NCBI RefSeq assembly: GCF_003231495.1
Contig: NZ_PQWO01000006.1
Location: 150,001 to 182,000, forward strand
Direction of reading: 5' to 3'
Source of the DNA: Acaryochloris thomasi RCC1774
Lineage (GTDB): Bacteria; Cyanobacteriota; Cyanobacteriia; Thermosynechococcales; Thermosynechococcaceae
Length of the DNA: 32,000 bases
Shown: piece after piece, positions 3,638 through 29,400 of the stretch
Numbering within the stretch: position 1 is the stretch's first letter
How the letters are laid out: each line of letters starts with the position of its first letter
Notes under the pieces: model-generated
What the model was told of the DNA's origin: nothing
What the model saw: only the letters and a program-made list of their open reading frames with translations
Databases searched by the model: none
Translations under genes and position numbers: made by a program

Positions 3638-4526
3638 ACCTATTAGATGTATCTCTCGTGTGCCTTCCCCTTTGATATTTTGTTTCTAAGCTAGAGCAGC
3701 TATATCGGAGCACATATGACTCCGGTGCTGACTTGCGTTCTGTAGATCTATGAAATGTCCAAATTTTGGATGAAAAACTAGACGGAGTAAGATTTACTAG
3801 TGCCAACAACTGGCAACAACGATTAGGACCATTTACGCGAAATGTCACATCGCTCAACATACTTCAGCGTGAATTTGTTCCTCTATGTCTTAGGCTCTTG
3901 CAAATCTGCACCTTCGAGGCTCTCCATCAAAAACTATCGCGTCAATATCTGGTGCCTCTTGTTCATCTTTCTTGCCTCCACTACTTTTGTTTATGCATGT
4001 TGCTAAGGTGTCCATCTGAACAAATCAGCGCTGGACTCTAGCTCGCTCATGGCTGGCTTTTTCCTGTGGTTTATTTCTGCATCACTGATCTCGTTGCATA
4101 GATTTGCGCTGGTCGCTGGGGAACTTTTTTGCTAGGCTCTTTATGAGGCAAGTTGTTCACAGACAAACTCTTGATTAAGGCTGTGGCATATGAGGTAAGA
4201 ACCCTGGGATTAAGCTGGACTTGTTTTTAGCTTCTAAGGGCCTATCTTGGATAATCGATAAGGTTATTGCCTGAAAATGGGGGATGGTAAATTTCTAAGT
4301 CTTAATGTGGCGGTTTTGCAGGGGCTCCAACTAAGATAGGTATGTTGGCGAGTTCAAACTCGTGAGCGCATAGTTATCTGTCTTGATATAGCATCAATCT
4401 TTAATTTTTAAGTCTACCCATCATTCCACTTGCTTATGGAATCGTCGATGGCAAACGGGCTTGAAAAAATATTCCTAAGAACTATTCTTTTTGCTCAGGC
4501 CAACCGAGCTTTATATTAGAACGAAA

Positions 4527-8529: not shown

Positions 8530-8589
8530 TTTGGTGCTACGTATATCTCCAAGAAGGAGGCTGGAAGCTCAAACGTCAATTTACTCGTT

Positions 8590-9711: not shown

Positions 9712-9780
9712 CTTTAATCTGACCTCGCTTCTGTCAGTAAAAGACCGCCGCCATCAGGCACTGAAGTCATATTCGCTAGC

Positions 9781-11025: not shown

Positions 11026-11056
11026 TATGCGTTTGCCTCGTCTCAGATCAGGAGCG

Positions 11057-12322: not shown

Positions 12323-12480
12323 GATTGACCCTTGATCATAAAATTTAGAACTTAAGAAATGAAATATAAAAGTCGAAAGAAGGCTATCGGCTTACTTTTG
12401 TTAATAAATAGCATTCTAGGAGTTGAGTCGCTCGAAACTGGGCTGAAGCTCGGCACTATATTGAGCTATTTAAGATGAAA

Positions 12481-13371: not shown

Positions 13372-13439
13372 AAACTTATCTTTTTAAAATATAGAAGTAT
13401 TAATATCCATCGGTTCTCCCGCCAATGGCTCCCCTTTTT

Positions 13440-14570: not shown

Positions 14571-14583
14571 TGAACGTCCCTAT

Positions 14584-15645: not shown

Positions 15646-15715
15646 AGAGAGCCAACTTCTACTGAGGGTGGTGTTTCGGAGAAACCCGTGCAGCGCAAGG
15701 ATCTGATGCTTTTAC

Positions 15716-16663
15716 TTAGCTAAAAAGAACTTCTGTTCCCGGTATATGGCCGAACAATTGAGTTGCATACTCCCTTACCCCATCTGTCTTAAACAGTTCC
15801 TGATATCGAGGATTGTCGGCGAAAAGCTTCCATCGGTTTAGAACATCCATTTTGTGAGCTTCGCCAGCATACTTATCCCCATCAAAAGAACTGCCGCGAC
15901 CAGAGACCGAAATATCATTTAAGCCATCGTCTGTAAACTTCACCTGAAGCTGAGCTGAGAGCTCCTTTCGATAGTCGATGTCAAAAAACCACTTATTGTA
16001 GTTAACGAATAACTTATTGTTTTTCAAAAAAGAGGTCTCATCTAAGCACTCTTTAGCATAAGAAACCCATAGCTCAGGCAGGCTGTAGCGGCGCGAGTAG
16101 ACTTCCAACATACTAAAGTTGGGTCGATCTTCACGAGGTTTAGACTGTAGCCGACTCGCGAACAAGTTAAAAGGGTCACGCATTACAATAATATCGAATC
16201 GCTTGTCACTCTTCCCTAGATACAGATCGTGCTTCCGCTCAAATGAAGCCTTTGTAACCTTTTCAATCTCTTGATCTTCATAACTATAGAGTAAGCAATC
16301 TTTGACAGAGAAATCACCTTCCTTTTCACTCTTCCACCAGTTAGGCTCCCTATAGTTCCATAGTGACTCATCAAGCTTACGCCCCAATATGACTTGGCTT
16401 TCATACTGATCGCGATAAGGATTTTCTAGTGGTTTAACATGATTGATGAACATTACCTCGCCCTGGACTTGCTTCGCGATCCAGTTGATAATGGCGTGAT
16501 TACCTGAGCGCCGTAATCCCAGGACTCTGATCTCTTTTCTGTTTACAACTGCATGGGGATCCGAGTTCTTTGATACAACCCGTGCATAATCTTCAAAGAC
16601 ATGCGATACCTTTTGATTGACTCGCTTAAGCAAGTAGCTGACTCTTTTTTTAGAGATCTCCAT
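15716..16663 (-). CDS. Hypothetical protein with degenerate sulfotransferase-like motifs (function uncertain)
   Basis: 315 aa, AT-rich coding. IRVLGLRRSGNHAIINWI resembles a strand plus P-loop (compare PKSGTT/RSGTT 5'-PSB). FDIIVMRDPFNLFASRL resembles the RDP-x-x-x-x-x-S 3'-PB motif. Motif spacing (~110 aa) is sulfotransferase-like. Confidence is ~0.8 that it is a real gene; the 0.35 below is for the family call. Confidence 0.35.
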   Translation of the reverse strand: MEISKKRVSYLLKRVNQKVSHVFEDYARVVSKNSDPHAVVNRKEIRVLGLRRSGNHAIINWIAKQVQGEVMFINHVKPLENPYRDQYESQVILGRKLDESLWNYREPNWWKSEKEGDFSVKDCLLYSYEDQEIEKVTKASFERKHDLYLGKSDKRFDIIVMRDPFNLFASRLQSKPREDRPNFSMLEVYSRRYSLPELWVSYAKECLDETSFLKNNKLFVNYNKWFFDIDYRKELSAQLQVKFTDDGLNDISVSGRGSSFDGDKYAGEAHKMDVLNRWKLFADNPRYQELFKTDGVREYATQLFGHIPGTEVLFS

Positions 16664-16766: not shown

Positions 16767-18623
16767 CTACGTGCGGACGTTTTCCACTACTTCCTTATAA
16801 TTCCCCGATTTCACAACTTCTCCAGCATCTAGCATATAAATCTTGTCACAATTTTTGATGGTTGTTAGTCGGTGTGCAATTGTAATCAGCGTGAGCCTGC
16901 TACTTGAAGATAAGGATGCAATAGAGTCCGTCACTAACTTTTCCGTTTCATTGTCCAATGCTGCCGTGGCTTCATCAAGTACCAAAATTTGCCGGTCATG
17001 ATAAATCGCTCTAGCGATACCAACACGCTGCCTCTGTCCACCCGACAACAAAATGCCTCGCTCGCCAACTAAGGTACTCAAGCCATTCGGTAAAGCATTG
17101 ATAACTTCGGTAAGCTGAGCAACTTCAATCGCTTCAGAAATTTTCTTGCGATCGATTAGATGCTCAGGAACGCCAAAAGCGATATTCTTCTCAATAGATT
17201 CATCTGTCAGAAATATGCTTTGTGGAATATAGGCAATTAAATCTTTCCAAGCACGAAGATTTTGATAGATAGAGTCATTGTCGACCATCAAATCTCCACT
17301 CTGGGGAATCAATAGGCCCAAGAGAATATCAACAAGTGTTGTTTTTCCTGCACCTGACTTACCTATAAAAGCGATTGAGTCTCCTTTGCTAATTGTCAGC
17401 GACAGATCAGAAATCACTGGCTTGTCAGAATTAGGATAATGATAGGTAATCCCTTCTAATCTAATCTGTTTGTCAAAACGGAAGGTATTTGAAACTCCTG
17501 CTTCCTGAATCGTATTTAAGCCAGCATTAAACTTGGTGTCAGGCATGGGCTTTCGCTCCAAAACAGATGCTTTTTGTTGCCTGTCAGCCTCTGTTCTGTA
17601 TCTAAGTGAATCCAACTCAGATAGTTCATAATGAATCTGATTGAGCGTAAAGCTAGATGCTCTGATCTGGGTAATACTGATAACAATATTGTTGATGGCT
17701 GGCAGTAGGCGTAATGCAGCTAGAGTGAAGATCCCTAGCACTGACGTAGTTTCGGCAATCCCCTCTTCATTAATCAGAACAGAAAAGCATATGATTGCCA
17801 CCACAATGATGACAAGGATGCTTTCCATAAAGAATCGCGGTAAAAGCTTGAAGGCAACAAAAGTACGCTGAACCTTCTCAAGCTTTTCAGCTTGATAGAT
17901 AATCTGATTTTCAAAATAGTTCTCACAGCCAATAACTTTCGTCTCCTTAACGCTGCCGAAAGCGTGGTTCACAATTTGAATAATATCTGCTTTGCTTTCG
18001 CGCATCTGCCTTCCCCATCCTCTAACTTTAGATGCGAGGGAGTTGAAGAACAGTAAGATTGGTAAAAGAGTCGCTAGTAGCGCAATTACCATCGGCAAAC
18101 TTGTAAAACAAAGTAAGCAGAATAAAGCAATGAACAAGAACGTATTTGCCAATGCAATAAGCAAAGGCATAAAAACTAGCGTTGAAAATGTATTCGCAAT
18201 CTCAATGAGCCTATCTATAATTGCTGAAGTATTTTTACTGATGTGGTAGATATAGGGAGCTTCAAGATAACCACGAGCCATTTTAATAATCAGAGCTCTT
18301 TGCTGCTGGTTACTAAACCTCGCGATGAATATTTGGGTGCCCCCAACAATTAAAGTTCTTAATAAGAAAATAAGCACAGCCATTAGCCCAACTAGAGCTA
18401 CAAAGTGACTTTCTTGAGCAATCCCAAGTGAGTCGCGTAACTGACTAAGCAAAGGCGTACGCTCGATCATGTCAAAGTCACTTGCCAAAGCAATGAATGG
18501 GCCTAGGATACCTATTCCTAAAGCTTCGACACCTGACGTTAATATAAAGACAAAGGCAGCCAACAAGAGATGAAAGTTGCTTGCTGGCAAGACGTACAAA
18601 ATTTTCTTGAGGTACCCTAGCAT
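16767..18623 (-). CDS. Fused ABC exporter (N-terminal 6-TM permease plus C-terminal ATPase; MsbA/PglK/McyH-like type I exporter)
   Basis: 618 aa with multiple N-terminal hydrophobic helices. The NBD has Walker A GKSGAGKTTL, signature LSGGQRQRVGIARA and Walker B ILVLDEATAALD. Confidence 0.9.
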   Translation of the reverse strand: MLGYLKKILYVLPASNFHLLLAAFVFILTSGVEALGIGILGPFIALASDFDMIERTPLLSQLRDSLGIAQESHFVALVGLMAVLIFLLRTLIVGGTQIFIARFSNQQQRALIIKMARGYLEAPYIYHISKNTSAIIDRLIEIANTFSTLVFMPLLIALANTFLFIALFCLLCFTSLPMVIALLATLLPILLFFNSLASKVRGWGRQMRESKADIIQIVNHAFGSVKETKVIGCENYFENQIIYQAEKLEKVQRTFVAFKLLPRFFMESILVIIVVAIICFSVLINEEGIAETTSVLGIFTLAALRLLPAINNIVISITQIRASSFTLNQIHYELSELDSLRYRTEADRQQKASVLERKPMPDTKFNAGLNTIQEAGVSNTFRFDKQIRLEGITYHYPNSDKPVISDLSLTISKGDSIAFIGKSGAGKTTLVDILLGLLIPQSGDLMVDNDSIYQNLRAWKDLIAYIPQSIFLTDESIEKNIAFGVPEHLIDRKKISEAIEVAQLTEVINALPNGLSTLVGERGILLSGGQRQRVGIARAIYHDRQILVLDEATAALDNETEKLVTDSIASLSSSSRLTLITIAHRLTTIKNCDKIYMLDAGEVVKSGNYKEVVENVRT

Positions 18624-18712: not shown

Positions 18713-19603
18713 TTAGTGCATCAGCCAGCTAGATAAATCCTTCTGAATGTATTCTTGAAGTCTGAGTATATCTTCCTCATAGGTTTTTACCAATGTCTCC
18801 CGCAGGTCATCAGGCAAATCAGGCTTAGACTTTCTGTTTTTTTCTCGAATATTTCGCAGTATTATTTTCCATTGATCGGGGAGGTACGGCTTTAGAAAAG
18901 AAATTGGTGAACTAGGGACAAGCATCTTGTTGATGAGCAGGTTTTGAGGTACTGAAGATACGTTCTTCCGAGACAAGTCAGGAACGAATCCTGAGTCAAC
19001 TTCAAGAAATTTGAATATGTTTTTCAATGTGTCTAGCGGATTCTGGTTTAACTCTTCGTAGAGAAATATCTTGAGCTGCTGAGGTGAAAAAAGCTCAGAG
19101 TATCTAGATATTTGTTCATAATAGAATCCTGCTTCTTTATATCGCCAGCCCGGTCTCCAGTCTTCTTTAGAACGCTTTTCCTCTTCCTCAAGCGCTTCTT
19201 TGAAAGTTAAATTTTCAGCACCGTCCCTGCGCTGATAGCAGTAGGCTGAAAATGCACGATCGCAAGGGTTTCTAAGGACAGTAATTAACTTGGCTTGTGG
19301 TATGAGTTCCTTGATTCTGTTAGGAGATTTTGGGAAAAACATATACTCAGTGGAGGCTTCTCCAATTGCCTTCTCTGTTGTAACGCCTCTGAATAGACTT
19401 TTATACTCTTGGAGTCCCATCTGTTTTCTTCTTGCTCCTTTACGAACCAGACTATTCGGAGGGGTCGCATAAAACTCTGGCGCAAAAAAACGTGGTTCTT
19501 TAGCTGGACTGATATAAATTTCAGGATGCTGCCCTAGGTAGTGACACAGCGAAGTTGTGCCACATTTAGCAGGGCCTATTATTATAAAATTAGGTAGTGT
19601 CAT
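18713..19603 (-). CDS. Sulfotransferase, carbohydrate (heparan-sulfate NDST/3-OST-like) type
   Basis: 296 aa. FIIIGPAKCGTTSLCHYL (5'-PSB) and VLRNPCDRAFSAY (3'-PB) closely follow the IIG-x-x-K-x-GTT-x-L / LRNP-x-DR-x-x-S pattern of HS N- and 3-O-sulfotransferase domains. Confidence 0.85.
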   Translation of the reverse strand: MTLPNFIIIGPAKCGTTSLCHYLGQHPEIYISPAKEPRFFAPEFYATPPNSLVRKGARRKQMGLQEYKSLFRGVTTEKAIGEASTEYMFFPKSPNRIKELIPQAKLITVLRNPCDRAFSAYCYQRRDGAENLTFKEALEEEEKRSKEDWRPGWRYKEAGFYYEQISRYSELFSPQQLKIFLYEELNQNPLDTLKNIFKFLEVDSGFVPDLSRKNVSSVPQNLLINKMLVPSSPISFLKPYLPDQWKIILRNIREKNRKSKPDLPDDLRETLVKTYEEDILRLQEYIQKDLSSWLMH

Positions 19604-19828
19604 AAACTGGACTCCGTTAAGTATTTAGACTTGCAAGCTCTATCGATAGAGATATCTCTTGCAACAACGTAACTTTCCCCTGTTCTGAACTACCCCACCC
19701 ATTTCTATGACTCTTCGTTGCGTTTTCCTGCGTGTAGATACAAGTTTCTTACTCTGGCGCAATAGATGCTGCTCGTATCATCTGTCATTCGGGCTTTAGG
19801 CTCAGGATGTATTTGAGCCTATATCTTG

Positions 19829-20719
19829 TCAGTCTAACCAACGAGAAAGGTCTCGCTCAATAAGATTCTGAAGGCTGAGTATATCTTCCCTATAATCTTT
19901 AGTTAACTGTTCTTTAATATCTGCAGGCATAGCTGAAAACTTCTTTGAATTCCAGCTTCTGACTTTATTGGCAACGCTGACCCTGAGTTGTTCGGGCACA
20001 ACCTGCTTGGCAAAGGATCGTAGCGAGTTGCGCTCGCTTAGGATGTTCTGCAAAATTTTGACCTTAGGGTTGTTCGACACGTTCTTGTGAGTTAATTCTG
20101 GCGTGAAGGTATCATCAACCTCCAAAAACGAGAATAGATCTCGGATGACATCTAAGGGGCTAGCAATTAAGTCATCAAACAAATAAATTTTTAGTTGACT
20201 GCGATCAAATCGTTCGAAGTAGGGTTTGAGCTGTGCGTAGTAATATCCCCCCTGCCGATAATGCCAAAGGTGAGCCCAGTTTTGATGAATTCGCTTATCT
20301 TCTGCCTGTAGAGCCTCTGCGAACGAAAGAGACTCCTGAGCAATCAAATGCTTGTAGCAGGAATAAGCCCTATCAACTGGGTTCCGAAGGACTGCAATCA
20401 GTTTTGTGTCAGGGACGTAGTGGGCAATGCGATCAACCGCTTTTGCACTATAAAGGTATAGCGGTGAAGCCTCCCCGATTGCTGTTTCATGGGTAACGCC
20501 ATCGAATAGTTTGTGATATTCAGATAAAGTCGTTACTGAAGTGTGATTGATGGATTGATCAGGATTTTGAAAGTTCAACTCTTCATCTTCTAGAGCAAAA
20601 AAGCGAGGCTCCTTCAATGGGCTCATATAGATTTGAGGGTGCTGATCAAGGTAGTAGTAGAGAGAGGTTGTTCCTCCTTTCGCTGCACCAATGATCAAGA
20701 AGTTAGGTAGTCGATCCAT
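19829..20719 (-). CDS. Sulfotransferase, carbohydrate (heparan-sulfate NDST/3-OST-like) type; tandem paralog of 18713..19603
   Basis: 296 aa with FLIIGAAKGGTTSLYYYL and VLRNPVDRAYSCY. It is collinear with the neighbouring sulfotransferase along its full length, roughly 40-45% identity by eye. Confidence 0.85.
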   Translation of the reverse strand: MDRLPNFLIIGAAKGGTTSLYYYLDQHPQIYMSPLKEPRFFALEDEELNFQNPDQSINHTSVTTLSEYHKLFDGVTHETAIGEASPLYLYSAKAVDRIAHYVPDTKLIAVLRNPVDRAYSCYKHLIAQESLSFAEALQAEDKRIHQNWAHLWHYRQGGYYYAQLKPYFERFDRSQLKIYLFDDLIASPLDVIRDLFSFLEVDDTFTPELTHKNVSNNPKVKILQNILSERNSLRSFAKQVVPEQLRVSVANKVRSWNSKKFSAMPADIKEQLTKDYREDILSLQNLIERDLSRWLD

Positions 20720-20842: not shown

Positions 20843-23554
20843 TTATTCTGTTTTGCGTAAGCTTTGATCTAGGTTTCTTTGTATTTTTTTCGATAAGATT
20901 TGAACGTATGGCTCATGAACCATGGTGTTATGGTGCCCAGGAATCTCTTGAGTATTTACTTCTTTCTTTGTGACGGCTTCCCATCCGAGAGAAAGATTGT
21001 CTCGGATGGTCGTTGGACGCTCGACAGACCGATATAGATTTATCTTTCCTGAGTAGCAGAAATCTGGATGGTAGGAGTTAAATGCTTCGTAGTTAGCTAA
21101 CTTTATTTCACGATAAATAGGAAGGTTCTCATAGATCTCAGGAAGCTCGTTGTGCAGCGTATCATTAATCAAAAATGCTGTCTTATCAATTCTCTCCCAA
21201 ATGAAACTAGGAATGACACCCTTAAGTCGTTCAAGTATATAACCTACTTTGCGTCTTGGATTAACACGCGAAAGATTAAAAAAGTGAATATATATTTGAT
21301 AGGTCAGGGAAGGCATATGAATGCGAGGGCGAGGTTGATGCCCGGGTGCAAATGTGTCAATCATGCCAACAAATGCCACATCATGACCTTTTTCTTCAAG
21401 CTGTCTGGCAACTTCGTAAGCGACTAATCCGCCCCCTGAATGTCCGATTAAAGAATAGGGACCCTTTGGCTGCAGCGTTTGTATCTCTCGAATAAAATGA
21501 GCTGCCATATCTTCGATCTGGCTAAAAACAAGATTTTCCTTCCCACCTAGTGCGGGGGGCTGAAGCCCGTAGAATGGCTGCTCTTTATCGAGATAGGTCG
21601 CAATGTTGTGATAATGTAAAATACTGGGCTCAACTGAGTGCATGCAAAAAAGTGCAGGTTTAGAACCTTCTGGCTTAATGGCGACAAGTGAATTCCACTC
21701 AGATGAATTTTCTTCAGTTAGAAGAGCGGCGAGCTTCTCAATACTGGGGGCTTGAAAAATTTTACTGAAGGGAAGCTTCTTATCAAACGTCTCTTCAATT
21801 TGAGAGAACAGTTCAATGGCCGCTAGAGATTTTCCGCCGAGTTCAAAAAAGTTGTCTTGAACTCCAATCTGCTCTAGGTTTAAGACAGTCTGCCAAATCT
21901 TTGTCAGCTGTAATTCTGCAGGATTTCGAGGTGCCAGATAATTCTTGTTGTTGTCTGTATCTAGTGAGCGATTGAGAGCGTCGAGCTTATCTTTTAATTG
22001 TTTTTGCTCAACGGTCCCTAGTGGTCTAATATCAGCTAGCGTTGCTTCGGGTTGTGCAATCGCTCGCTCCAGTAGAATCATCCAGTGCTGAAACAGGCTT
22101 TTCAGGGTTGCCTTATCAAACAGATCTGTTTTGTATTGGATGTACCCACCCATATCATCGCCATCGGGCTCAACGAATATCGCTAGATCAAAGTCAGCTG
22201 TGTCTATTGCCATCTCTTCTTTGCTCAAGGCTTGAGCTGTCATTTGGCCGAGTTCAAGAGGCTGTTGTGGGCCATTCTGCTGACTTTGAAGAACAAATAG
22301 TGCGCGGGATAGAGGAACACCTGCTAATGATGGAAAGCCCGCAATTTGCTGCAGGGGCACGTCGGGGTAATCGTAGATGGCTGTGATCGTCTGTTGTTCC
22401 TGATTCATTAGTTCTCGGAACGTCAATTCACTCGTGACCCGCGTACGCAGGGGCAGAATATTGTTGAAATATCCAATCAGTTTTTGCGTATCACTGCGGC
22501 TGCGTCCTGCTACTGGTGAGCAAACAATGAGATCAGTCTGCCCGCTGTAGCAGTGCAATAATGCTTTGAATGACGCGAGAAGAACAGTGAACTGAGACTT
22601 ACCCTCCTGCTGGCAAAAATCAGTGAAGGCACGGCAGAGAGGACGCTCTATCCTGAAAGACTGACAGCGTCCCTGCATGCTTTGATTGTTTGAGTAGGCC
22701 CGATCGAGGGGCAGCTTCAAGGCCTCGGGAGTCTCATCGAAGACCTGCTGCCAATACTCTACTTGGGGTTTGAGAGCATCTCCTGAAAGCCACTCCTGAT
22801 GCCAAGCCGCAAAGTCGACATACTGAAAAGGCAGCTCTGGTAATGCGGAGGATATATTTGATCCTCCTGCATTGTATAGAGAAGATAGCTCTGAAATAAT
22901 TAAGCCCAAAGACCAGCCGTCTGCCACCATGTGATGGACCACAATAACCAGTAAGTATTCCTGTGACGATATCTGGAGCAAGGTGTAGTTGATCAGCGGT
23001 CCCTTGTCTAGCTCGAAGGGTTGCTTACTGATCTCTGCGACCCTGCGTAGCGCTTGGCTTTCTGCGTCACTCTGCTCCTGTAAATTAACGATCGTAAGGG
23101 CAGGGGGAGTTTCTGCTTGGATGACGACTTTGGGACCACTACCGTTACTGGTGTAGATAGTTCTTAGAACTTCATGGCGGTTAACAATTGTTTTCAGCGC
23201 GGCCTCAAGGCGTTCGATATGAAGATTGCCCGTCAGCCAAAAGGCCATGGGTAGGTTATATATACCCATGCCTGCCTGAAGCTGATCAACTAACCACAAG
23301 CGTTCTTGGGCCATTGAAACCTGCAAGGGGACATCTCGGGAAGTGACAGGGATAGGAGTAAGAGTCGAAGCTAAACCCGAGAAAGTCTTGGTCTGACTCA
23401 GTAATTGCAGCAGCTCTGGTTTGGACTGCTTTAAAGTCTCTTGGAGTTCAGGGGTAAATTTCCCTTTAGGAGCTCGGATGCGCAACCTATCGTTTTCAGC
23501 AGATACCTTGATCCCCAGTTGAGATAACTCAGATAGCAGACCCTCCAAACTCAT
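20843..23554 (-). CDS. NRPS-like termination protein lacking an adenylation domain: N-terminal docking domain - condensation (C) - thiolation (T) - thioesterase (TE); copy 1
   Basis: 903 aa. A TubC_N/beta-hairpin-type docking N-terminus (MSLEGLLSELSQLGIKVSAENDRLRIRAPKGKFTPELQETLKQSKPELLQLL). C motifs SMAQERLWLVDQL and HHMVADGWS (22910-22936). T motif FFELGGKSLAA (Ser codon 21827-21829). TE motif GHSGGG (Ser codon 21437-21439), with later D and H candidates (GMIDTF, PGHHNTM). GGAGGA lies 8 nt before the ATG. Confidence 0.85.
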   Translation of the reverse strand: MSLEGLLSELSQLGIKVSAENDRLRIRAPKGKFTPELQETLKQSKPELLQLLSQTKTFSGLASTLTPIPVTSRDVPLQVSMAQERLWLVDQLQAGMGIYNLPMAFWLTGNLHIERLEAALKTIVNRHEVLRTIYTSNGSGPKVVIQAETPPALTIVNLQEQSDAESQALRRVAEISKQPFELDKGPLINYTLLQISSQEYLLVIVVHHMVADGWSLGLIISELSSLYNAGGSNISSALPELPFQYVDFAAWHQEWLSGDALKPQVEYWQQVFDETPEALKLPLDRAYSNNQSMQGRCQSFRIERPLCRAFTDFCQQEGKSQFTVLLASFKALLHCYSGQTDLIVCSPVAGRSRSDTQKLIGYFNNILPLRTRVTSELTFRELMNQEQQTITAIYDYPDVPLQQIAGFPSLAGVPLSRALFVLQSQQNGPQQPLELGQMTAQALSKEEMAIDTADFDLAIFVEPDGDDMGGYIQYKTDLFDKATLKSLFQHWMILLERAIAQPEATLADIRPLGTVEQKQLKDKLDALNRSLDTDNNKNYLAPRNPAELQLTKIWQTVLNLEQIGVQDNFFELGGKSLAAIELFSQIEETFDKKLPFSKIFQAPSIEKLAALLTEENSSEWNSLVAIKPEGSKPALFCMHSVEPSILHYHNIATYLDKEQPFYGLQPPALGGKENLVFSQIEDMAAHFIREIQTLQPKGPYSLIGHSGGGLVAYEVARQLEEKGHDVAFVGMIDTFAPGHQPRPRIHMPSLTYQIYIHFFNLSRVNPRRKVGYILERLKGVIPSFIWERIDKTAFLINDTLHNELPEIYENLPIYREIKLANYEAFNSYHPDFCYSGKINLYRSVERPTTIRDNLSLGWEAVTKKEVNTQEIPGHHNTMVHEPYVQILSKKIQRNLDQSLRKTE
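20870..21679 (-). other. Copy 1: thioesterase domain (approximate)
   Basis: G-x-S-x-G as LIGHSGGGLVAYEVA, with downstream Asp and His candidates. This segment is visibly AT-rich. Confidence 0.75.
21707..21919 (-). other. Copy 1: thiolation (PCP) domain (approximate)
   Basis: YLAPRNPAELQLTKIWQTVLNLEQIGVQDNFFELGGKSLAAIELFSQI; predicted phosphopantetheinyl Ser codon at 21827-21829. Confidence 0.8.
22022..23329 (-). other. Copy 1: condensation domain (approximate)
   Basis: Runs from C1-like SMAQERLWL to ...LLERAIAQPEATLADIRPLG; HHMVADGWS catalytic motif at 22910-22936. Confidence 0.8.
23390..23554 (-). other. Copy 1: N-terminal docking domain (approximate)
   Basis: Residues 1-55. Pattern L-x-x-L-x-x-x-G-(I/V)-x-(L/V)-x-x-x-x-D-(R/K)-L-R-(I/V)-x-AP-K-G-x-x-TPEL is typical of TubC_N-type docking domains. 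Confidence 0.7.
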
Positions 23555-23707
23555 GTAATTTCCTCCATTTCCTTTTCTAGATCACCGGATAATGTAGCCT
23601 CCGGCATAAATCACATTGGTGCTTCTTCCTTGACTCAAGGCTTCATTCCCTTGTGAACCTGTATTGTTCGCTTTTTCTGCGGGAATTTTGGGTAATATAG
23701 CCTGATT

Positions 23708-26419
23708 CTAATTTGATGTCTGTGTCGGCTCGTTGAAACGGATTGATATTTTCTGAGCCTCGTCCAAGCATGCTCCGAGCTGCTGAGCTACGTCTTGAAC
23801 GTAGGGCTGGCTCAGCATTTTTCCATGATAGCCTGGGACAGAATGAACTTCTATCTTCCCGTCGATTAACTCTCCCCAACCTAGGTCAGGCGCGCGATAT
23901 ACATGTTGCTGGTCAACATTTCGTTCAGTGGCTCGAAGAATGGTTAACGTATCTGAGTAGATTCTGGGTTCGTAGTCTTTGACGGCTTTGTAATTGGCTT
24001 GCGCGACTCGGTAGGTCACTTCATCGATCGTGGAACTCCAGTGAGGACGTGACTTAGATGAGAAGAAAGGACGAAGGAGCCTGTTCGAGTAACTTTTTTC
24101 CTTGAGCTGATGCTGTAGGAAATTAAGAAAATATTTCAGAAAAACGAGAGGATGAACTCGAAATCGCAGAAGATTCATCGCATTATAAAGCCACCTCTTC
24201 AACGGTGAGACATCCCGTATTGAGTCAAACAAGACCAGCAGTGCTACCTTTTGACCTTTCTGACGAAGTTGCTGGGCCATTTCAAAGGCTACGATACCGC
24301 CAAAGGAGTATCCTCCAAGAAAATAAGGTCCTTCTGGCTGAAACGTTCTTATTTCTTGAAGATAGTCTGCGGCCATGTCTTCAATGCGAACATTTGCAGA
24401 GTGCTGACCATCTAGAGCACGGGACTCTAAACCATAGAAGGGCTGCTCTGAGTCTAAAAGACTCGCTAAAACTCGAAAATTGAGGACGTGACCCCCTCTG
24501 CCACAAACGCAGAAAAAAGGAGGCTTAGCACCATGGGGCTGCAAGGGAACAATCGGAGACCAGGGAGCCGACTCATCTTTCTTACGGATTGTTTCGGCTA
24601 GCTGTTCAACGGTTGGTGCTTCAATCAAGGTCGCCAACGGTAGCTTTTGATCACAGACCATTTTGATCTGATTGAACAACTGCAGCGCTAACAACGAAGA
24701 GCCGCCTAGATCAAAGAAGTTATCATGCACGCCAACCTGGTCTACACCCAAAACAGTTTGCCAAATTTGTGTTAACTGTAGCTCTACGGGATTGCGAGGG
24801 GCAACGTAGTGGGCCTGATCTTGTTCGGCTTTGGCTGAAAGCTGATTGAGTGCATCAACTTTATCTTGTAATTGTTGACGCTCAACGGTGCCGAGGGGCT
24901 GCAGCTCACTTAATGTTGCTTCTGGCTGCTCAAGTGCTCGCTCTAGCAAAGTCACCCAGTGACGAAAGAGATCTTCGACTGTGGATTGCTCAAAAAGCTC
25001 TGTTCGATACTGAATATATCCGCCGAACTGATGGGGGGCTGGCTCTACAAAAATTGCTAGATCAAAGTCAGCGGTATCAACGCCCATTTCTTCTTTTGTT
25101 AGCGGTTGAGCGGTTACTGCATCAAGGGTCAGAGCCTGCTGGGGACCGCTCTGTTGACTTTGAAGGACGAACAACGCTCGGGATAGGGAAATACCTGCTA
25201 AATTCGGGAAATTGGCAATCTGTTGCAAAGGTACGTCAGGATAGTCATAAATTGCGGTGACTGTTTTCTGCTCCTGTTGGATAAGGTCACGAAAGGTTTG
25301 GTGACTAGAAACCTGGGTCCGCAAGGGCAAGATGTTATTGAAATACCCGATTAACTGCTGTGTGTCGCTGCTGCGCCCCGCGACTGGCGAACAGACGATG
25401 AGGTCCTTTTGGCCGCTATAGCAGTGCAGCAATGCTTTGAAGGATGCCAAAAGGACCGTGAATTGAGACTTACCTTCCTGCTGGCAAAAAGCGATGAGGG
25501 CTTGAGAGAGCGAGCTATCTATATTGAAAGTCTGGCAGCGTCCCTGCGTGCTTTGACTGGTTGAGTGGAGCCGATCTAGAGGTAGCTTGAGGGTTTCTGG
25601 AGAGTCTGTAAAAATTTGGTGCCAATAGTCTAGCTGAGGCGTCAATTGTTCACTCGCTAGCCATTGTTTTTGCCAAGCTGCGAAGTCAGCATATTGAAAG
25701 GGAAGATCTGTGAAAGATACTTCGCCTGAGCCTTTGGCATTGTAGAACGCAGATATTTCAGAAATGATCAGTCCTAAGGACCAACCGTCTGCCACCATGT
25801 GATGAACAACAATAACGAGTAAGGACTCATCGGCAGCTAAGCGGATCAGGCTGTAGTGGATGAGAGGTCCTTGAGCGAGGTCAAAGGGTTTCTTACTCAG
25901 CTCTGCAACTAAGCCTAAAGCTTGAACTTCAGGTTCAGGATGCTGCTGTAGGTCAGTACAGGTCAGTGCTGGGGCCGTTGTCTCAATGATGACGCTGGGA
26001 CCGTCCCCACTGGGAGGATAGATAGTCCTGAGAACTTCATGTCGCTTGACCAGGGTTTGTAGGGACTTTTCGAGCCGATCTGCGTCAAGATGACCGGTCA
26101 GTCGAAACGCCATGGGCAGATTGTAGGTACTGCTGCCAGGTTGGAGCTGATCGACTAGCCACAGACGTTCCTGGGCGATAGAAACGGGTAGAGGAGCATC
26201 GCGGGAAAGAAGCGGAATGGCGTTCGCTGCCTTTGCAGGACTGGCAACTGTTCTTTGCTGGCTGAGGAGATTGAGCAGCTCTGGTTTTGATTGGTGCAGG
26301 GCGGCCCGCAGCTCTGGGGTAACTCGACCTTTTGGAGCCCGGACGCGCAGCTTGTCGTCCTGCACGGAAATTTTAATCCCACGTTGGGACAGATCGGACA
26401 ACAGTTGTTCCAGGCTCAT
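23708..26419 (-). CDS. NRPS-like termination protein lacking an adenylation domain: docking - C - T - TE; copy 2, start overlaps the PKS stop
   Basis: 903 aa. Docking N-terminus MSLEQLLSDLSQRGIKISVQDDKLRVRAPKGRVTPELRAALHQSKPELLNLL. C motifs SIAQERLWLVDQL and HHMVADGWS (25778-25804). T motif FFDLGGSSLLA (Ser codon 24695-24697). TE motif GGYSFGG (Ser codon 24305-24307). ATG 26419-26417 overlaps the PKS TGA 26418-26416 (ATGA). Confidence 0.85.
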   Translation of the reverse strand: MSLEQLLSDLSQRGIKISVQDDKLRVRAPKGRVTPELRAALHQSKPELLNLLSQQRTVASPAKAANAIPLLSRDAPLPVSIAQERLWLVDQLQPGSSTYNLPMAFRLTGHLDADRLEKSLQTLVKRHEVLRTIYPPSGDGPSVIIETTAPALTCTDLQQHPEPEVQALGLVAELSKKPFDLAQGPLIHYSLIRLAADESLLVIVVHHMVADGWSLGLIISEISAFYNAKGSGEVSFTDLPFQYADFAAWQKQWLASEQLTPQLDYWHQIFTDSPETLKLPLDRLHSTSQSTQGRCQTFNIDSSLSQALIAFCQQEGKSQFTVLLASFKALLHCYSGQKDLIVCSPVAGRSSDTQQLIGYFNNILPLRTQVSSHQTFRDLIQQEQKTVTAIYDYPDVPLQQIANFPNLAGISLSRALFVLQSQQSGPQQALTLDAVTAQPLTKEEMGVDTADFDLAIFVEPAPHQFGGYIQYRTELFEQSTVEDLFRHWVTLLERALEQPEATLSELQPLGTVERQQLQDKVDALNQLSAKAEQDQAHYVAPRNPVELQLTQIWQTVLGVDQVGVHDNFFDLGGSSLLALQLFNQIKMVCDQKLPLATLIEAPTVEQLAETIRKKDESAPWSPIVPLQPHGAKPPFFCVCGRGGHVLNFRVLASLLDSEQPFYGLESRALDGQHSANVRIEDMAADYLQEIRTFQPEGPYFLGGYSFGGIVAFEMAQQLRQKGQKVALLVLFDSIRDVSPLKRWLYNAMNLLRFRVHPLVFLKYFLNFLQHQLKEKSYSNRLLRPFFSSKSRPHWSSTIDEVTYRVAQANYKAVKDYEPRIYSDTLTILRATERNVDQQHVYRAPDLGWGELIDGKIEVHSVPGYHGKMLSQPYVQDVAQQLGACLDEAQKISIRFNEPTQTSN
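23750..24547 (-). other. Copy 2: thioesterase domain (approximate)
   Basis: G-x-S-x-G as FLGGYSFGGIVAFEMA; LVLFDS and VPGYHGKM are Asp and His candidates. Confidence 0.75.
24575..24787 (-). other. Copy 2: thiolation (PCP) domain (approximate)
   Basis: YVAPRNPVELQLTQIWQTVLGVDQVGVHDNFFDLGGSSLLALQLFNQI. Confidence 0.8.
24890..26197 (-). other. Copy 2: condensation domain (approximate)
   Basis: Runs from SIAQERLWL to LLERALEQPEATLSELQPLG; HHMVADGWS at 25778-25804. Confidence 0.8.
26255..26419 (-). other. Copy 2: N-terminal docking domain (approximate)
   Basis: Residues 1-55. By hand alignment, 38 of the first 54 residues are identical to copy 1. Confidence 0.7.
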
Positions 26420-29400
26420 ATGAAAAACTCCTCCATCTCTTCTTCTTCCAGCTCTTCGGAAGGGGTGGATTCCGGCAGCAAGATATTGGCAACTCTCAGC
26501 TTATGTAAGAGTTCCCCTGTTAGCTCCTGCAATGTACTGCCGCCGATCAGCTGCTCCATGGCAACGTCAATTTGGAGTTGACTTTGGAGGCGGGTCCTCA
26601 GCTCAACACCCATGAGGGAATCTAGGCCGAGGCGATTGAGAGAGTCTTTCGACTTGGGCCGTCGAGAGGCCGGTAATCCCAAAACCTCAGCAGATTGAAC
26701 CTGTAAGTATTTCAGGAGTAGCGAAAGACTCTCTTCTTCTGATGCTGTTTTTAGCTGCTGGAGTAGTTCATCGATCTGAATCGAGTCGCTTCCTTCTGCG
26801 CTAGCTGCTGCGGAAATAGGGCTCGCTAGCTCAGACAGCAGACTTGTATAGGCTTCTCCTGAAAAGCGCTGGATGAAGGTGGACCAGTTAACGGGCAAGA
26901 CACCGACATGGCTTCGGGACTCGGCAATCATCTGCTCTAGAGCCTGAAGCCCCTGTTCTACGGGAATGGAGCTGATGCCTTGAGAGGATAAGCGTGCGCG
27001 GTCTTGTTCGCTCATGCTGGCGGCCATGCCGACCTCTGCCCAGGGACCCCAGCTGAGGCTGAGTCCAGGCAGGCCTAGGGACTGGCGGTAGTGGGCGAGG
27101 GCATCCATGAAGGCGTTGGCGGCGGCGTAGTTGCCTTGACCTTGGGCACCTAAGAGGGCGGCAACGGAGGAGAAGAACACCATGAAGTCTAGAGGGTGTT
27201 TCTGAGTGAGCTTGTGCAAATGCCAGGCTCCGTTGACTTTGGGTTCCATTACTTCGAGGATGCGATCGCAACTCTGCGAAACTAGCAATCCATCATCGAT
27301 TACCCCAGCCGCATGAATAATCCCACGCAGCGCCGGATACGGTTCGATCTCTTTGAGGGTCCGCTCCACAGCTTCTGCTTTGGAAACATCAGCCGCGACC
27401 ACATGGACTTGAGTTCCCGCCTCCTGAAGCTGGTCGATGACAGCCTGGGCCGTTGGACTTGCGCCCCGGCGTCCGGTCAGAGCGACATGCTTAGCCCCTT
27501 GTTTTGAAAGCCACTTGGCAATTTCTAAACCTAAAGCGCCTAATCCACCTGTTACTAAGTAGGTCGCATCTTCCCGAACAACCTCGGTTTTTGTTGGAGA
27601 TTGAGGAGGCTGAGAAATCACAACCTTACCAATGTGCTTGGCCTGGGCCATAAATCGGAACGCGCCGATATAGTCCTGCATCGGAAAGGCCGTGAAAGGC
27701 AGCGGTCTCAGGGAGCCGTCCTGGAAAGCGGCCATCAGGACCGTCAGCATCTCTTTGATGCGGGCGGGCTGCGGAACGGCAATGTCGTCGCCGAGATCGT
27801 AGGGCATATAGTTGATGTCTTTGCCCAGTGCCTTGGCTTCCTCTTGCGTCCACAGGCCAATTTTGCCCAGCTCTAGGAACCGACCGCCGCGACCGATGGT
27901 GTCAAAGGTCTTGGTCATGAAGTCACCTGCCAAGCTGTTGAGGACAACATCGACGCCCTCTCCGTTAGTCAAGGACAGCACTTCGTCAGCAAAGTCCAGC
28001 GTGCGGGAGTTCATGACGTGCTGAACACCCATCGATTTAAGAAAGTCCCACTTGCCCGGGCTAGCGGTGGCAAATACTTCAGCTCCAGCTCTTTGGGCGA
28101 GTTGGACGGCAGCTTGACCGACGCCACCGGCTGCGGCATGGATGAGGATGCGATCGCCCGCTTTAATCTCAGCCAGGGTGTGCAGACCATAGTAGGCGGT
28201 CAGATAGTTGGTGGGGACTGTCGCGGCTTCTTCAAAGCTTAGTTCGACAGGTTTGGGAATCACGAACTGGGCGTCAGCAATCACGTGGCTGCTGAGACAG
28301 TTGGTTGCGATCGCAACAATCACTGCATCACCCACGGCAAAATCAGTAACGCCGTCGCCCACAGAGGTTACAGTGCCTGCACATTCATAACCGAATGGCA
28401 TATTCTCAGGGTCTTCTAGCCCCAGAGTCTTAAAGTAATCCTGCAGCTTGCCCAAGACCGTGAGCACATCTTTAAAGTTCAAGCCCGTTGCCTGGACCTT
28501 GACCTCCACCTGAGCCGGTCCAGGAGTGGGTCGCTGCAGCGGCTCTAGCGTTAAATTCTCTAAAATCCCGTATTCCTTGAGCTTGAGCTGGAACGGTTGC
28601 TCAGCCTTTTTCTGCTCAGTCCGGCGGACCAATCGGGCGGTGTAGCGAACGTCCTGTCGATAGGCGACTTGCTTCTCTAAATCAACGCCTGTCACTTCAG
28701 CCAACAACGCCTCAGCCTTATTTGCCGCAGCAAACGGATCAAGGTCCACCATCTTGCAGTGCAGCTCGGGATGTTCTAGAGCAATCACGCGCCCTAGCCC
28801 CCATAAAGGAGACTGCTGAACCTGAACAGATTCTGGAACTTGTCCCACAGCTTGTGCCCCAGCGGTCACGAGCCAAACCCCAGCAGAAACATTGGCCTGA
28901 CTGAGAGCCTGGACAAGGTGCAGAACGCCGCCACAGGTTTTAACCTGCGTTTTTTGAATCTCAGGCAACGTCAATGTGCTCACCGCTTTAGTCGCTTGAT
29001 CAAGGCTTCCGAGGTGAACGACGCCGTAGCCCCCCTCTCGCTTCAGGTCAAGATTACTCAGTAATTGCTGAACGTCCTCAGGTGCTTCTGGATTGACGGT
29101 GTAGCGATCACCCTGCCGACCGTAGGCTGACCCGCTGGCAATCAACTTGCAATGATGGCCTTTGTCCTGTAGTGAGGTGGCAAGATTCTCCCCTACCTGT
29201 GCCTGATCCATAAAAATGAGCCAGTTATTCGGGATCTTTGCTACATCGCCTGCGCCGACCTCTTGGGGTTCCCAAGCATACTCGTATAGCCAGTCTTCAA
29301 CATTCTGCTGTAGACTTCGCATCAACGCCTCACGGCTGGCTCGTCGCAACGCTAGATCTCGAATCCGAGCAACCACGTTTCCGTGATCGTCCAACAGCGT

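What the first reader, a model, noticed from the sequence alone, without database searches (positions are those of the whole stretch)
20843..26419. No adenylation domain anywhere in the window: orphan T domains and C domains that may act as O- or N-acyltransferases onto a non-amino-acid acceptor
In both proteins the end of the C domain (…LLERA(I/L)(A/E)QPEATL…PLGTVE(Q/R)(K/Q)QL) leads through a ~27-residue linker into the start of the T domain (Y(L/V)APRNP(A/V)ELQLT(K/Q)IWQTVL). The ~500-aa A domain expected between them is cleanly absent. No stand-alone A domain, FkbH-like or acyl-AMP ligase gene lies in the 25 kb downstream of the PKS.

One possibility is that the T domains are loaded in trans by something upstream or off-window. 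The other is that the C domains use a free nucleophile. Given the surrounding GTs and sulfotransferases, a sugar hydroxyl or amine is an obvious candidate, analogous to PapA-type enzymes or VibH-type free-acceptor condensation. The role of a T-TE pair in that scenario is unexplained and would be new.
Basis: partly seen in the sequence, partly recalled or inferred. Interest (0 to 1): 0.7.

Follow-up and report, generated by a model that had tools for sequence, protein, structure and literature searches.

The report
Two adenylation-less PKS release modules
A cyanobacterial-type polyketide synthase is followed by two sister enzymes that have every part of a peptide-synthetase finishing module except the part that selects and loads a building block; they belong to an old, uncharacterised enzyme family, so how their carrier domain gets loaded is an open and testable question.

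Summary
Both 903-aa proteins (23708-26419 and 20843-23554, minus strand) are docking domain–C–T–TE, with about 30 residues between C and T. No adenylation sequence exists in any frame of the window.

This is not a recent deletion. In a tree of 160 related C domains, 31 of 33 A-less ones form a single clade. The clade spans several phyla and includes a cultured strain, Gloeothece verrucosa PCC 7822. All three catalytic centres are conserved across it.

The PapA/VibH-type free-acceptor reading is not supported:
- The C domains are canonical LCL type.
- They keep the arginine shown, in one studied C domain, to exclude an unloaded carrier arm.
- T and TE are conserved.

My best reading (about 0.45) is that both proteins dock in parallel on the acidic tail of the PKS. 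Each condenses the acyl chain onto a unit loaded in trans on its own T domain, and the two release it through very different TE domains.

The loader was not found. DNA upstream of position 32000 could not be retrieved. In all seven clade contexts there is one carrier more than there are loading enzymes. A relay in which TE passes the acyl chain to a sugar remains a live rival.

The parts
26416..31911 (-). C-terminal 1831 aa of a type I PKS: (KS C-terminal part)-AT-DH-ER-KR-ACP. Its N-terminus lies beyond the window end.
   Evidence: Pfam. The ORF reaches the window edge.
26419..26484 (-). PKS C-terminal acidic tail ILLPESTPSEELEEEEMEEFFI, the presumed short linear docking motif for the TubC_N domains.
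   Evidence: The tail is conserved in relatives L001, L003 and L088. Similar acidic ...EEF[EV][IF]* tails end the C-A-T proteins that precede docking-domain C-T-TE genes in L005 and L006.
23708..26419 (-). CTTE-A, 903 aa: TubC_N dock - C - T - TE. Its start overlaps the PKS stop codon by 4 nt.
26258..26410 (-). CTTE-A N-terminal beta-hairpin docking domain (TubC_N, res 4-54).
   Evidence: PF18563, 1.5e-17.
24869..26191 (-). CTTE-A condensation domain (res 77-517): C1 motif SIAQERLW with R85, C3 motif HHMVADG.
   Evidence: PF00668, 7e-92. LCL-type PDB neighbours. Motif conservation.
24587..24778 (-). CTTE-A thiolation domain (res 548-611), LGGSS with Ser575.
   Evidence: PF00550. The Ser is invariant in the clade alignment.
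23750..24520 (-). CTTE-A thioesterase domain (res 634 to about 890): GYSFG (Ser705), Asp732, His865.
   Evidence: PF00975. Clade alignment.
20843..23554 (-). CTTE-B, 903 aa, same architecture. Identity to CTTE-A by domain: dock 69%, C 68%, T 58%, TE only 27-46%.
23393..23539 (-). CTTE-B TubC_N docking domain (res 6-54).
   Evidence: PF18563, 4e-18.
21995..23323 (-). CTTE-B condensation domain (res 78-520), motifs SMAQERLW and HHMVADG.
21719..21907 (-). CTTE-B thiolation domain (res 550-612), LGGKS.
20894..21655 (-). CTTE-B thioesterase domain (res 634-887), GHSGG, with Asp and His present.
18713..20719 (-). Two paralogous 296-aa sulfotransferases directly downstream. This position is conserved in all relatives of the subfamily.
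   Evidence: Pfam. Synteny in L001, L003, L088 and L089.
16767..18623 (-). ABC exporter of the PglK/MsbA/HepA type, the class that flips lipids or lipid-linked glycans.
7159..16663 (-). Co-directional glycan genes: unknown 315 aa, GT2, GT4, sulfotransferase, three GT4s and a polytopic 456-aa membrane protein.
   Evidence: The same gene order is seen in L003 and L088.

Best explanation
CTTE-A and CTTE-B are two alternative, parallel chain-terminating NRPS-type modules for the same PKS.

Proposed steps:
1. Each protein uses its N-terminal beta-hairpin docking domain to bind the acidic C-terminal tail of the PKS.
2. Its LCL-type C domain takes the fully reduced acyl chain from the PKS ACP as donor.
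3. The C domain joins that chain to a nucleophile-bearing unit, most simply an amino acid, held as a thioester on the protein's own T domain.
4. Because there is no A domain in cis, that unit must be loaded in trans. The loader would be an adenylating enzyme outside the window: an upstream module acting iteratively, as CmnA-A1 does for CmnI, or an A-T plus shuttle, as SyrB1/SyrC do for SyrE.
5. The TE then offloads the acylated unit. The two TEs are only about 27-46% identical while the docks and C domains are about 68-69% identical. I therefore expect the two proteins to differ in the release step, meaning a different nucleophile or different product fate.
6. The released lipid is probably then glycosylated, sulfated and exported by the co-transcribed GT, sulfotransferase and ABC genes.

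Shown: the architecture, intact catalytic motifs, the LCL type of the C domain, the docking pair and the synteny. Inferred: parallel docking, trans-loading, the identity of the acceptor, and the link to the glycan genes.
For: - Domain architecture and absence of A.
- C domains are nearest to canonical LCL domains in the PDB.
- HHxxxDG, the T-domain Ser and the TE Ser/Cys-Asp-His are conserved over a clade of about 30 proteins at 33-55% identity. All three domains are therefore under selection, and the product must pass through T.
- The arginine equivalent to fuscachelin R2577 is R85, by direct alignment of QRRLW with QERLW; the R2577G crystal variant reads QRGLW. It is at least 90% conserved in the clade. 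PMC8097023 shows that this residue keeps an unloaded phosphopantetheine arm out of the active site.
- The acidic PKS tail is conserved in relatives. Neither CTTE protein carries such a tail, so neither can hand a chain to the other.
- Per-domain identities.
- Trans-loading of A-less modules has precedents: SyrE (PMC8949500), CmnI (PMC12400406) and the Salinispora stand-alone A plus C-PCP-TE (PMC7888443).
- Five of the six non-window clade contexts contain an adenylating enzyme that could act on a second carrier.
- The gene order PKS-CTTE-ST-ABC-GT is conserved at 55-80% protein identity.
Against: - No loader was seen.
- In every clade context examined, the carriers outnumber the loading enzymes by one or more. 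The adenylating enzyme that is present already has its own partner carrier.
- L090 has no A-superfamily domain in 22.7 kb.
- The cultured PCC 7822 locus has only a FAAL-ACAD fusion in 42 kb.
- Several of those enzymes activate aryl or fatty acids, not amino acids. A universal 'amino acid loaded in trans' model is therefore strained.
- The gating-arginine argument rests on one studied C domain.
- The link to the glycan genes rests on synteny only.
Confidence: 0.45

Rival explanations
1. Acyl relay with Pks13-like offloading. The T domain is never pre-loaded. The acyl chain moves from the PKS ACP onto the T thiol, catalysed by the C domain or by the TE acting as a SyrC-like shuttle. The TE then transfers it to a hydroxyl or amine of a sugar, glycan or lipid intermediate, which makes the lipid part of a sulfated glycolipid or lipidated polysaccharide. 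The two TEs would serve two different acceptors.
For: - No clade context has a dedicated loader for this T domain.
- GT genes lie beside clade members in the window family, L141 (at least 6 GTs), L144 (a GT2 directly downstream) and L090.
- In minimal clusters such as chorismate lyase-A-ACP-CTTE, plain hydrolysis would be futile, so some second substrate is required.
- About one third of clade TEs have a Cys nucleophile, as acyl-shuttling hydrolases do (the comparison with SyrC is from memory).
- The T-TE region aligns with the Pks13 ACP-TE region (2e-27).
- The two TEs have diverged sharply.
Against: - I know of no C domain shown to catalyse thiol-to-thiol transfer.
- The gating arginine that excludes an unloaded arm is conserved.
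- The C domain is a typical LCL domain with no obvious remodelling.
- A PKS or ACP could simply carry its own TE.
- The GT2 proteins next to different clade members are not orthologous.
- The Pks13 score is far below the family cut-off, and the EntF T-TE matches better.
Confidence: 0.22
2. Self-condensation module. The only adenylating enzyme of each cluster loads the same acid onto both the upstream carrier and the CTTE T domain. The C domain then links two copies through a side-chain hydroxyl or amine, giving a depside, an estolide or a dipeptide-like dimer. The TE releases or cyclises the dimer.
For: - The rule of one loader for two carriers holds in L007, L141, L147, L005 and L006.
- These five clusters supply a potential nucleophile: hydroxybenzoate from chorismate lyase or FkbO, a P450 in PCC 7822, or the amino acid of an upstream C-A-T.
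- An A domain that acts iteratively in trans is documented for capreomycin (PMC12400406).
Against: - The window PKS has a full DH-ER-KR set, so its product has no obvious nucleophile.
- A FAAL cannot load the PKS-extended chain onto T.
- L090 has no A domain at all.
- LCL-type C domains are not typical ester formers.
Confidence: 0.12
3. The C domains release the chain directly onto a free sugar hydroxyl or amine, in the manner of PapA, VibH or Bamb_5915, and T-TE has an accessory or editing role.
For: - Bamb_5915 also has an N-terminal docking domain and uses a free acceptor. Its match to the query starts at residue 1.
- The locus sits in a GT and sulfotransferase context.
- C-like O-acyltransferases that act on glucose exist (MxgH, PMC13638107).
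Against: - T and TE are strictly conserved across the clade.
- Similarity to LCL domains is far higher than to Bamb_5915, SgcC5, VibH or PapA5.
- The gating arginine is conserved.
Confidence: 0.08
4. Decayed remnants. The A domains were deleted, and the proteins are inactive or on their way to loss.
For: L088 carries a 111-aa relic ORF (a docking domain fused to a copy of the PKS tail) where CTTE-A should be. This shows that the region does rearrange.
Against: - The reading frames are intact and all catalytic motifs are present.
- The proteins fall in a monophyletic A-less clade spread over several phyla.
- Both paralogues are conserved in relatives at 78-80% identity.
Confidence: 0.03

Closest known systems
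A-less NRPS modules loaded in trans: the terminal C-T-TE of SyrE (SyrB1 A-T plus SyrC shuttle), CmnI of capreomycin (loaded by CmnA-A1), and Salinispora nrps1 stand-alone A plus C-PCP-TE
   Same: A C domain is followed directly by T (and TE) with no A in cis. The C domain is of the ordinary peptide-forming type. CmnI also appears among the PDB sequence hits (9uay, 8e-36).
   Different: In those systems the trans-acting A, or A-T plus shuttle, is encoded in the cluster and has been identified. Here none lies in the 25 kb downstream. Across the clade no spare loader is seen, and the donors are PKS, fatty-acyl or aryl chains on ACPs rather than peptides.
EntE/EntB/EntF-type aryl-capped NRPS (stand-alone A, aryl carrier protein, C-A-T-TE)
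   Same: Clade contexts L007, L141 and L147 have the same layout of acid-activating enzyme, small carrier protein and terminal module. The T-TE region matches EntF best among named NCBIfam families (2e-39).
   Different: The terminal module lacks the A domain that supplies serine in EntF.
TubC-type beta-hairpin docking between a PKS or NRPS subunit tail and a downstream C domain (Bamb_5915 and Bamb_5917 in enacyloxin)
   Same: An N-terminal PF18563 domain faces an acidic C-terminal tail on the upstream carrier-containing protein.
   Different: Bamb_5915 is a stand-alone C domain that releases onto a free acceptor. Here the C domain is fused to T-TE, and two paralogues would compete for one tail.
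PapA5, PapA1 and PapA2 polyketide-associated acyltransferases of mycobacterial sulfolipid and PDIM pathways
   Same: They share the C-domain fold and the HHxxxDG motif, they sit next to a PKS, and they occur in a sulfotransferase and glycolipid context.
   Different: PapA proteins are stand-alone, have no T or TE, and act on free alcohols. Sequence similarity is marginal (23.7 bits against a cut-off of 396).
Pks13 ACP-TE, which transfers mycolate to trehalose
   Same: A terminal carrier-TE pair on a lipid-producing synthase could pass the acyl chain to a sugar. A weak alignment exists (2e-27).
   Different: Pks13 has no C domain. The score is far below the family cut-off (95 against 2100 bits).

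Membership tests
Canonical NRPS termination module (C-A-T-TE) | Condensation domain with a catalytic HHxxxDG motif | tested here: met
   PF00668 at 7e-92 and 1e-92. HHMVADG is present in both proteins.
Canonical NRPS termination module (C-A-T-TE) | Adenylation domain in cis between C and T | tested here: not met
   The C-to-T spacer is about 30 residues. No AMP-binding hit by Pfam, by a custom six-frame HMM or by core motifs.
Canonical NRPS termination module (C-A-T-TE) | T domain with the phosphopantetheine-attachment Ser, and TE with a Ser/Cys-Asp-His triad | tested here: met
   LGGSS and LGGKS in T. GYSFG and GHSGG plus Asp732 and His865 in TE. All are conserved in the clade.
A-less NRPS module loaded in trans (SyrE-T9 and CmnI type) | C directly followed by T, with a C domain of the ordinary LCL type that expects a loaded acceptor arm | tested here: met
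   The nearest PDB sequences are LCL domains. The C1 motif SxAQxRLW includes the R2577-equivalent arginine, which is at least 90% conserved.
A-less NRPS module loaded in trans (SyrE-T9 and CmnI type) | A trans-acting A domain, or an A-T plus shuttle, encoded in the cluster | tested here: inconclusive
   None at window positions 1-32000. The upstream DNA is not retrievable: the source genome is not in the genome collection, and the contigs of relatives end inside the PKS. Clade contexts show no spare loader.
A-less NRPS module loaded in trans (SyrE-T9 and CmnI type) | The T domain is actually aminoacylated | not testable with these tools
   This needs intact-protein MS or phosphopantetheine-ejection MS.
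PapA-type polyketide-associated acyltransferase | Stand-alone C-like protein of about 420-470 aa without carrier or TE domains | tested here: not met
   Both proteins are 903-aa dock-C-T-TE proteins.
PapA-type polyketide-associated acyltransferase | Sequence membership in the PapA family | tested here: not met
   NCBIfam PapA5 scores 23.7 and 23.2 bits against a cut-off of 396. PapA5 is absent from the PDB hits at 1e-10.
Free-acceptor release C domains (VibH, Bamb_5915) | Closest relatives are free-acceptor C domains, and no downstream T-TE is needed | tested here: not met
   Bamb_5915 (6cgo) scores 3e-27 against 3e-75 for TycC. VibH is not listed at 1e-10. T-TE is conserved in the clade.
Beta-hairpin (TubC_N) docking pair | N-terminal PF18563 domain on the acceptor protein | tested here: met
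   1.5e-17 and 4.3e-18.
Beta-hairpin (TubC_N) docking pair | Short acidic or hydrophobic C-terminal motif on the upstream carrier-bearing protein | tested here: met
   The PKS ends ...SEELEEEEMEEFFI. The tail is conserved in L001, L003 and L088, and similar tails occur in L005 and L006. Binding itself was not tested.
Pks13-type sugar-acylating TE | TE that transfers the acyl chain to a sugar hydroxyl | tested here: inconclusive
   There is only a weak alignment to the Pks13 ACP-TE region (95 bits against a cut-off of 2100). The activity cannot be tested in silico.

The most novel reading that the evidence does not exclude
The A-less dock/C-T-TE clade is a distinct class of release module that never uses a dedicated adenylation domain. 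Its T domain is charged by a non-adenylating route: either an acyl relay from the upstream ACP through the C or TE domain, or loading of the same acid twice. The TE then couples carrier-bound fatty, polyketide or aryl acids to glycans or other cellular nucleophiles. In this locus, two such modules with different TEs would lipidate two different acceptors of a sulfated glycolipid or polysaccharide pathway.
Probability: 0.2. Interest if true: 0.8.

Novelty: new variant of a known kind. Interest (0 to 1): 0.58.

Why it matters
A-less NRPS modules are known as isolated exceptions, each with an identified trans-acting loader. This locus points to something different.

- **A coherent lineage.** The C-T-TE modules form an ancient clade found in cyanobacteria, in a Chloroflexota MAG (Ardenticatenaceae) and in metagenomes.
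- **Every domain kept except A.** All catalytic centres other than the A domain are conserved.
- **One loader too few.** In every genomic context I could read, the modules sit in a cluster with one carrier more than there are loading enzymes.
- **Frequent glycan neighbours.** Glycosyltransferase genes often lie beside them.

Working out how the T domain is charged would have two possible outcomes. It could extend the 'iterative trans-A' rule to a whole family. Or it could reveal a new way to hand polyketide, fatty or aryl acids to a TE for transfer.

The result would also say what lipid a cyanobacterial sulfated-glycan gene cluster attaches or exports.

A cultured strain with a complete genome, Gloeothece verrucosa PCC 7822 (plasmid Cy782201, WP_013334491), carries a minimal version of the system. 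The question is therefore directly testable.

Tried and rejected
**Finding the upstream DNA**
- An exact-protein lookup of CTTE-A found nothing on record.
- Syntenic relatives at 79% identity (L001, L003) end inside the PKS.
- A homologue search with the PKS found no close full-length orthologue; the best hit was 46% identical. That hit, P0122, belongs to an ordinary PKS-C-A-MT-T / C-A-T-TE cluster.
- A genome-collection scan with the PKS N-terminal part gave at best 64% identity (L009, Acaryochloris), and that locus is an unrelated C-A-T-TE cluster.
- A metagenome scan with the subfamily alignment returned no close relative.

**Looking for a conserved partner**
- I tested whether a specific GT2 partner is conserved across clade contexts. 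The GT2 proteins share only generic N-terminal similarity.
- I tested whether the ACAD fused to the C-T-TE in P0004 is the same enzyme as the ACAD next to the PCC 7822 gene. The two show no significant similarity.

**Contexts removed from the clade argument**
- I first counted L082 (FAAL-ACP-KS-AT-ACP-C-T-TE), L052 and L032 as family members. Their C domains fall outside the clade, so they are independent A losses.
- L091, L092, L102 and L112 looked A-less by length. They are ...A-T-C-(weak or no T)-TE ends, which is a different arrangement.

**Literature and structure**
- Searches for C-T-TE, C-PCP-TE and A-less modules found precedents for trans-loading but no description of this clade.
- I did not run structure prediction. 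The tool returns no coordinates, so it could not show where the T domain docks.


Full report
**1. The observation**

From 31911 down to 7159 the window carries an unbroken run of minus-strand genes. The first is the C-terminal 1831 aa of a type I PKS with the domains (KS C-terminal part)-AT-DH-ER-KR-ACP. It is cut by the window end.

Its stop codon overlaps by 4 nt the start of a 903-aa protein at 23708-26419, which I call CTTE-A. After a 153-nt gap comes a second 903-aa protein at 20843-23554, CTTE-B. Pfam gives both the same architecture: TubC_N docking domain, Condensation, PP-binding, Thioesterase. They are 54% identical.

No adenylation domain exists in the window:
- There is no AMP-binding hit in any ORF of 100 aa or more.
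- A six-frame hmmsearch with an A-domain HMM built from 60 related A domains found nothing even at E<=10.
- There are no A3, A7, A8 or A10 core motifs and no MbtH signature.

Downstream lie two sulfotransferases, a PglK/MsbA/HepA-like ABC exporter, an unknown 315-aa protein, a GT2, a GT4, a third sulfotransferase, three more GT4s and a polytopic membrane protein. A Wzc-like tyrosine kinase sits on the other strand.

**2. Not an accident of this genome**

A homologue search returned about 30 proteins of 840-945 aa with the same C-T-TE architecture, with or without the docking domain. They are 33-79% identical to CTTE-A, and a profile search added three more. The named sources are cyanobacterial MAGs and an Ardenticatenaceae (Chloroflexota) MAG; the rest come from unnamed metagenome assemblies. 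None carries an informative name.

I built a neighbour-joining tree of 160 C domains taken from all hits. In it, 31 of the 33 C domains that are followed directly by a T domain form one clade. That clade is separate from the C domains of C-A-T modules. This is an NJ tree on a similarity-selected sample, so it is indicative only.

Across the clade these residues are conserved:
- The HHxxxDG motif of the C domain.
- The phosphopantetheine-attachment Ser of the T domain.
- The TE G-x-(S/C)-x-G nucleophile, Asp and His. The nucleophile is Ser in about two thirds of members and Cys in about one third.

The C-T junction is at the same place in all members. The usual C-A linker (...PLGTVERQQL..., which resembles the consensus l-L-x-x-E-R-x-x-L from my own knowledge) runs into the usual start of a T domain (YxAPRxxxE). 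This is an old, stable architecture in which all three domains are under selection. Other A-less C-T-TE ends exist outside the clade (L082, L052, L032, P0108). Their C domains group with ordinary modules, so they are independent losses.

**3. What kind of C domain**

By sequence the C domains are nearest to canonical LCL peptide-bond-forming domains. E-values:

| PDB entry | E-value |
|---|---|
| TycC PCP-C (2jgp) | 3e-75 |
| AB3403 (4zxh) | 7e-73 |
| PvdL (9lcq) | 4e-70 |
| Txo1 (6oyf) | 1e-62 |
| Txo2 (6p1j) | 2e-60 |
| Fuscachelin C3 (7kvw) | 3e-59 |
| 4znm (ester-forming SgcC5; identity from memory) | 3e-37 |
| Bamb_5915, free-acceptor release (6cgo) | 3e-27 |
| CDA starter C (4jn3) | 3e-18 |

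VibH and PapA5 do not appear at 1e-10. The NCBIfam PapA5 model scores 23.7 bits against a cut-off of 396.

The C1 motif is the LCL form, S-x-A-Q-x-R-L-W. Izoré et al. (PMC8097023) showed for fuscachelin C3 that R2577 blocks the acceptor channel to an unloaded phosphopantetheine arm. They also report that this Arg is found in 73% of LCL domains and is Gly in DCL domains. Direct alignment shows that R2577 corresponds to R85 of CTTE-A: the wild type reads QRRLW, the R2577G crystal variant reads QRGLW, and the query reads QERLW. R85 is at least 90% conserved in the clade. This suggests that the acceptor arm is expected to arrive loaded. The argument is modest, because it rests on one characterised C domain.

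**4. Docking and the two paralogues**

The PKS ends in ...ILLPESTPSEELEEEEMEEFFI. This tail is conserved in the syntenic relatives. Similar acidic ...EEF[EV][IF]* tails end the C-A-T proteins that precede docking-domain C-T-TE genes in L005 and L006. Neither CTTE-A nor CTTE-B has such a tail, and each ends in its own TE.

Identity between A and B, by domain:

| Region | Identity |
|---|---|
| Docking domain | 69% |
| C domain | 68% |
| T domain | 58% |
| TE domain | 27-46% |

The A-type and B-type TEs are each conserved in orthologues, at 64-92% and 66-85% identity in the TE regions.

I infer that both proteins dock on the same PKS tail and act in parallel as alternative terminators. They would share donor and condensation chemistry and differ in the release step. 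One relative (L088) has only the B type. In place of A it has a 111-aa ORF made of a docking domain fused to a copy of the PKS tail.

**5. Genomic contexts of clade members**

| Context | Gene order |
|---|---|
| Window subfamily (L001, L003, L088, L089) | PKS → CTTE(s) → sulfotransferase(s) → ABC → GT2, GT4, ST, GT4... (55-80% protein identity) |
| L005, L006 | FAAL-ACP-KS-AT... PKS → C-A-T → CTTE; L006 is then followed by cell-division and murein genes |
| L007 | chorismate lyase → aryl-type A → ACP → CTTE |
| L090 | chorismate lyase → ACP → O-methyltransferase → CTTE; PPTase and GT2 nearby; no A-superfamily domain in 22.7 kb |
| L141-143 | FkbO-type chorismatase → aryl/acyl-CoA-ligase-like A → ACP → CTTE, embedded among at least six GTs |
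| L144-146 | NRPS amino-acid-type stand-alone A (LgrA, 1e-91), an 85-aa carrier-like protein and an AsnB-like gene, divergent from CTTE → GT2 |
| L147, Gloeothece verrucosa PCC 7822 plasmid | P450 → FAAL-ACAD fusion → ACP → CTTE (WP_013334491) → ACAD; only one A-superfamily domain in 42 kb |

In L089 the second CTTE is fused to an AidB-like acyl-CoA-dehydrogenase domain. The PCC 7822 protein is 42-47% identical to clade members.

The common rule is that each cluster has one carrier more than it has loading enzymes. The orphan is always the T domain of the C-T-TE. GT genes adjoin clade members in the window family and in three other contexts, but the GT2 proteins are not orthologous.

**6. How it most likely works**

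The LCL character of the C domain and the conserved gating arginine favour a pre-loaded T domain. Precedents exist: SyrE's last C-T-TE is loaded via SyrB1 and SyrC (PMC8949500), and CmnI is loaded by CmnA-A1 (PMC12400406). Salinispora nrps1 pairs a stand-alone A with a C-PCP-TE (PMC7888443).

I therefore commit, at about 0.45, to this model: two parallel split termination modules, loaded in trans by an enzyme outside the window, making an acylated unit that the GT, sulfotransferase and ABC genes further process.

The absence of any spare loader across the clade keeps two unconventional rivals alive:
- An acyl relay onto T followed by TE-catalysed transfer to a sugar or other nucleophile (0.22).
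- Double loading of the same acid followed by self-condensation (0.12).

Inactivity is very unlikely.

**7. Limits**

The DNA upstream of position 32000 could not be obtained by any route available. The C-domain subtype assignment rests on PDB and NCBIfam scores plus one motif, not on a curated reference phylogeny. The product, the acceptor and the role of the glycan genes are all inferred.

**8. Novelty and verdict**

A-less modules and trans-loading are known. A monophyletic, multi-phylum C-T-TE clade has not surfaced in the literature I could search. Nor has tandem duplication of such a module, with divergent TEs, behind one PKS inside a sulfated-glycan gene cluster.

I rate it a new variant of a known kind, with interest 0.58. 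The open question, how the T domain is charged, can be tested directly in a cultured strain.

Noticed in passing
L088:516-851 (relative of the window locus): A 111-aa ORF made of a TubC_N docking domain fused directly to a near-copy of the PKS C-terminal tail (...NILLSESSFADELEEEMEEIVI). It sits exactly where CTTE-A lies in the window. It looks like a recombination scar or possibly a docking adaptor.
   Followed up: partly
L089:2782-6831 (P0004) and L147:15555-24390 (Gloeothece verrucosa PCC 7822): Acyl-CoA-dehydrogenase-like flavoenzymes recur with clade C-T-TE proteins. One is fused to the C-terminus of the TE (P0004, AidB-like). One is fused to the FAAL, and another is encoded just downstream, in PCC 7822. 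The P0004 ACAD and the downstream PCC 7822 ACAD show no significant similarity to each other.
   Followed up: partly
Clade alignment, CTTE-A residue 705: The TE nucleophile is Ser in about two thirds of clade members and Cys in about one third (P0087, P0117, P0097, P0092, P0116, P0107, P0040, P0052, P0011). Two members (P0018, P0011) lack the catalytic His.
   Followed up: no
window 15716-16663 (-): A 315-aa protein with no Pfam or NCBIfam hit lies between the ABC exporter and the GT2. An ORF of similar size occupies the same position in L003 (314 aa) and L088 (324 aa). It contains an RSGNHA stretch that may resemble the PAPS-binding loop of sulfotransferases; that comparison is from memory and was not tested.
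   Followed up: no
window 7159-8529 (-) and 4491-6872 (+): A polytopic 456-aa membrane protein with no family hit could be a Wzy-type polymerase or ligase. A divergently placed Wzc-like chain-length-determinant tyrosine kinase lies next to it. Both Wzy-dependent-type and ABC-type export components therefore flank the GT genes.
   Followed up: no
window 1-32000: G+C content varies along the gene run. It is about 0.54-0.55 over the PKS, 0.48 over CTTE-A, 0.41-0.42 over CTTE-B, the sulfotransferases and the ABC gene, and up to 0.55 again in the GT4 region. The operon may be assembled from parts of different origin.
   Followed up: no
P0009 (1326 aa) and P0019 (1504 aa): Variants with two consecutive C domains before T-TE (C-C-T-TE, one from Candidatus Acidiferrales). 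Their C domains group together outside the main A-less clade.
   Followed up: no
L082:7028-14899 (uncultured Acidobacteriaceae): A single 2623-aa ORF encodes FAAL-ACP-KS-AT-ACP-C-T-TE, flanked by GT4, GT2, a sugar epimerase/dehydratase and a DAO-type oxidoreductase. Its C domain is only about 27% identical to anything in the set, so this is an independent A-less fusion in another glycan context.
   Followed up: partly
window 2033-2788 (-): An LmeA-like phospholipid-binding protein (PF11209, 7.5e-38) is encoded near the end of the glycan gene run. Any relation to the locus is unknown.
   Followed up: no
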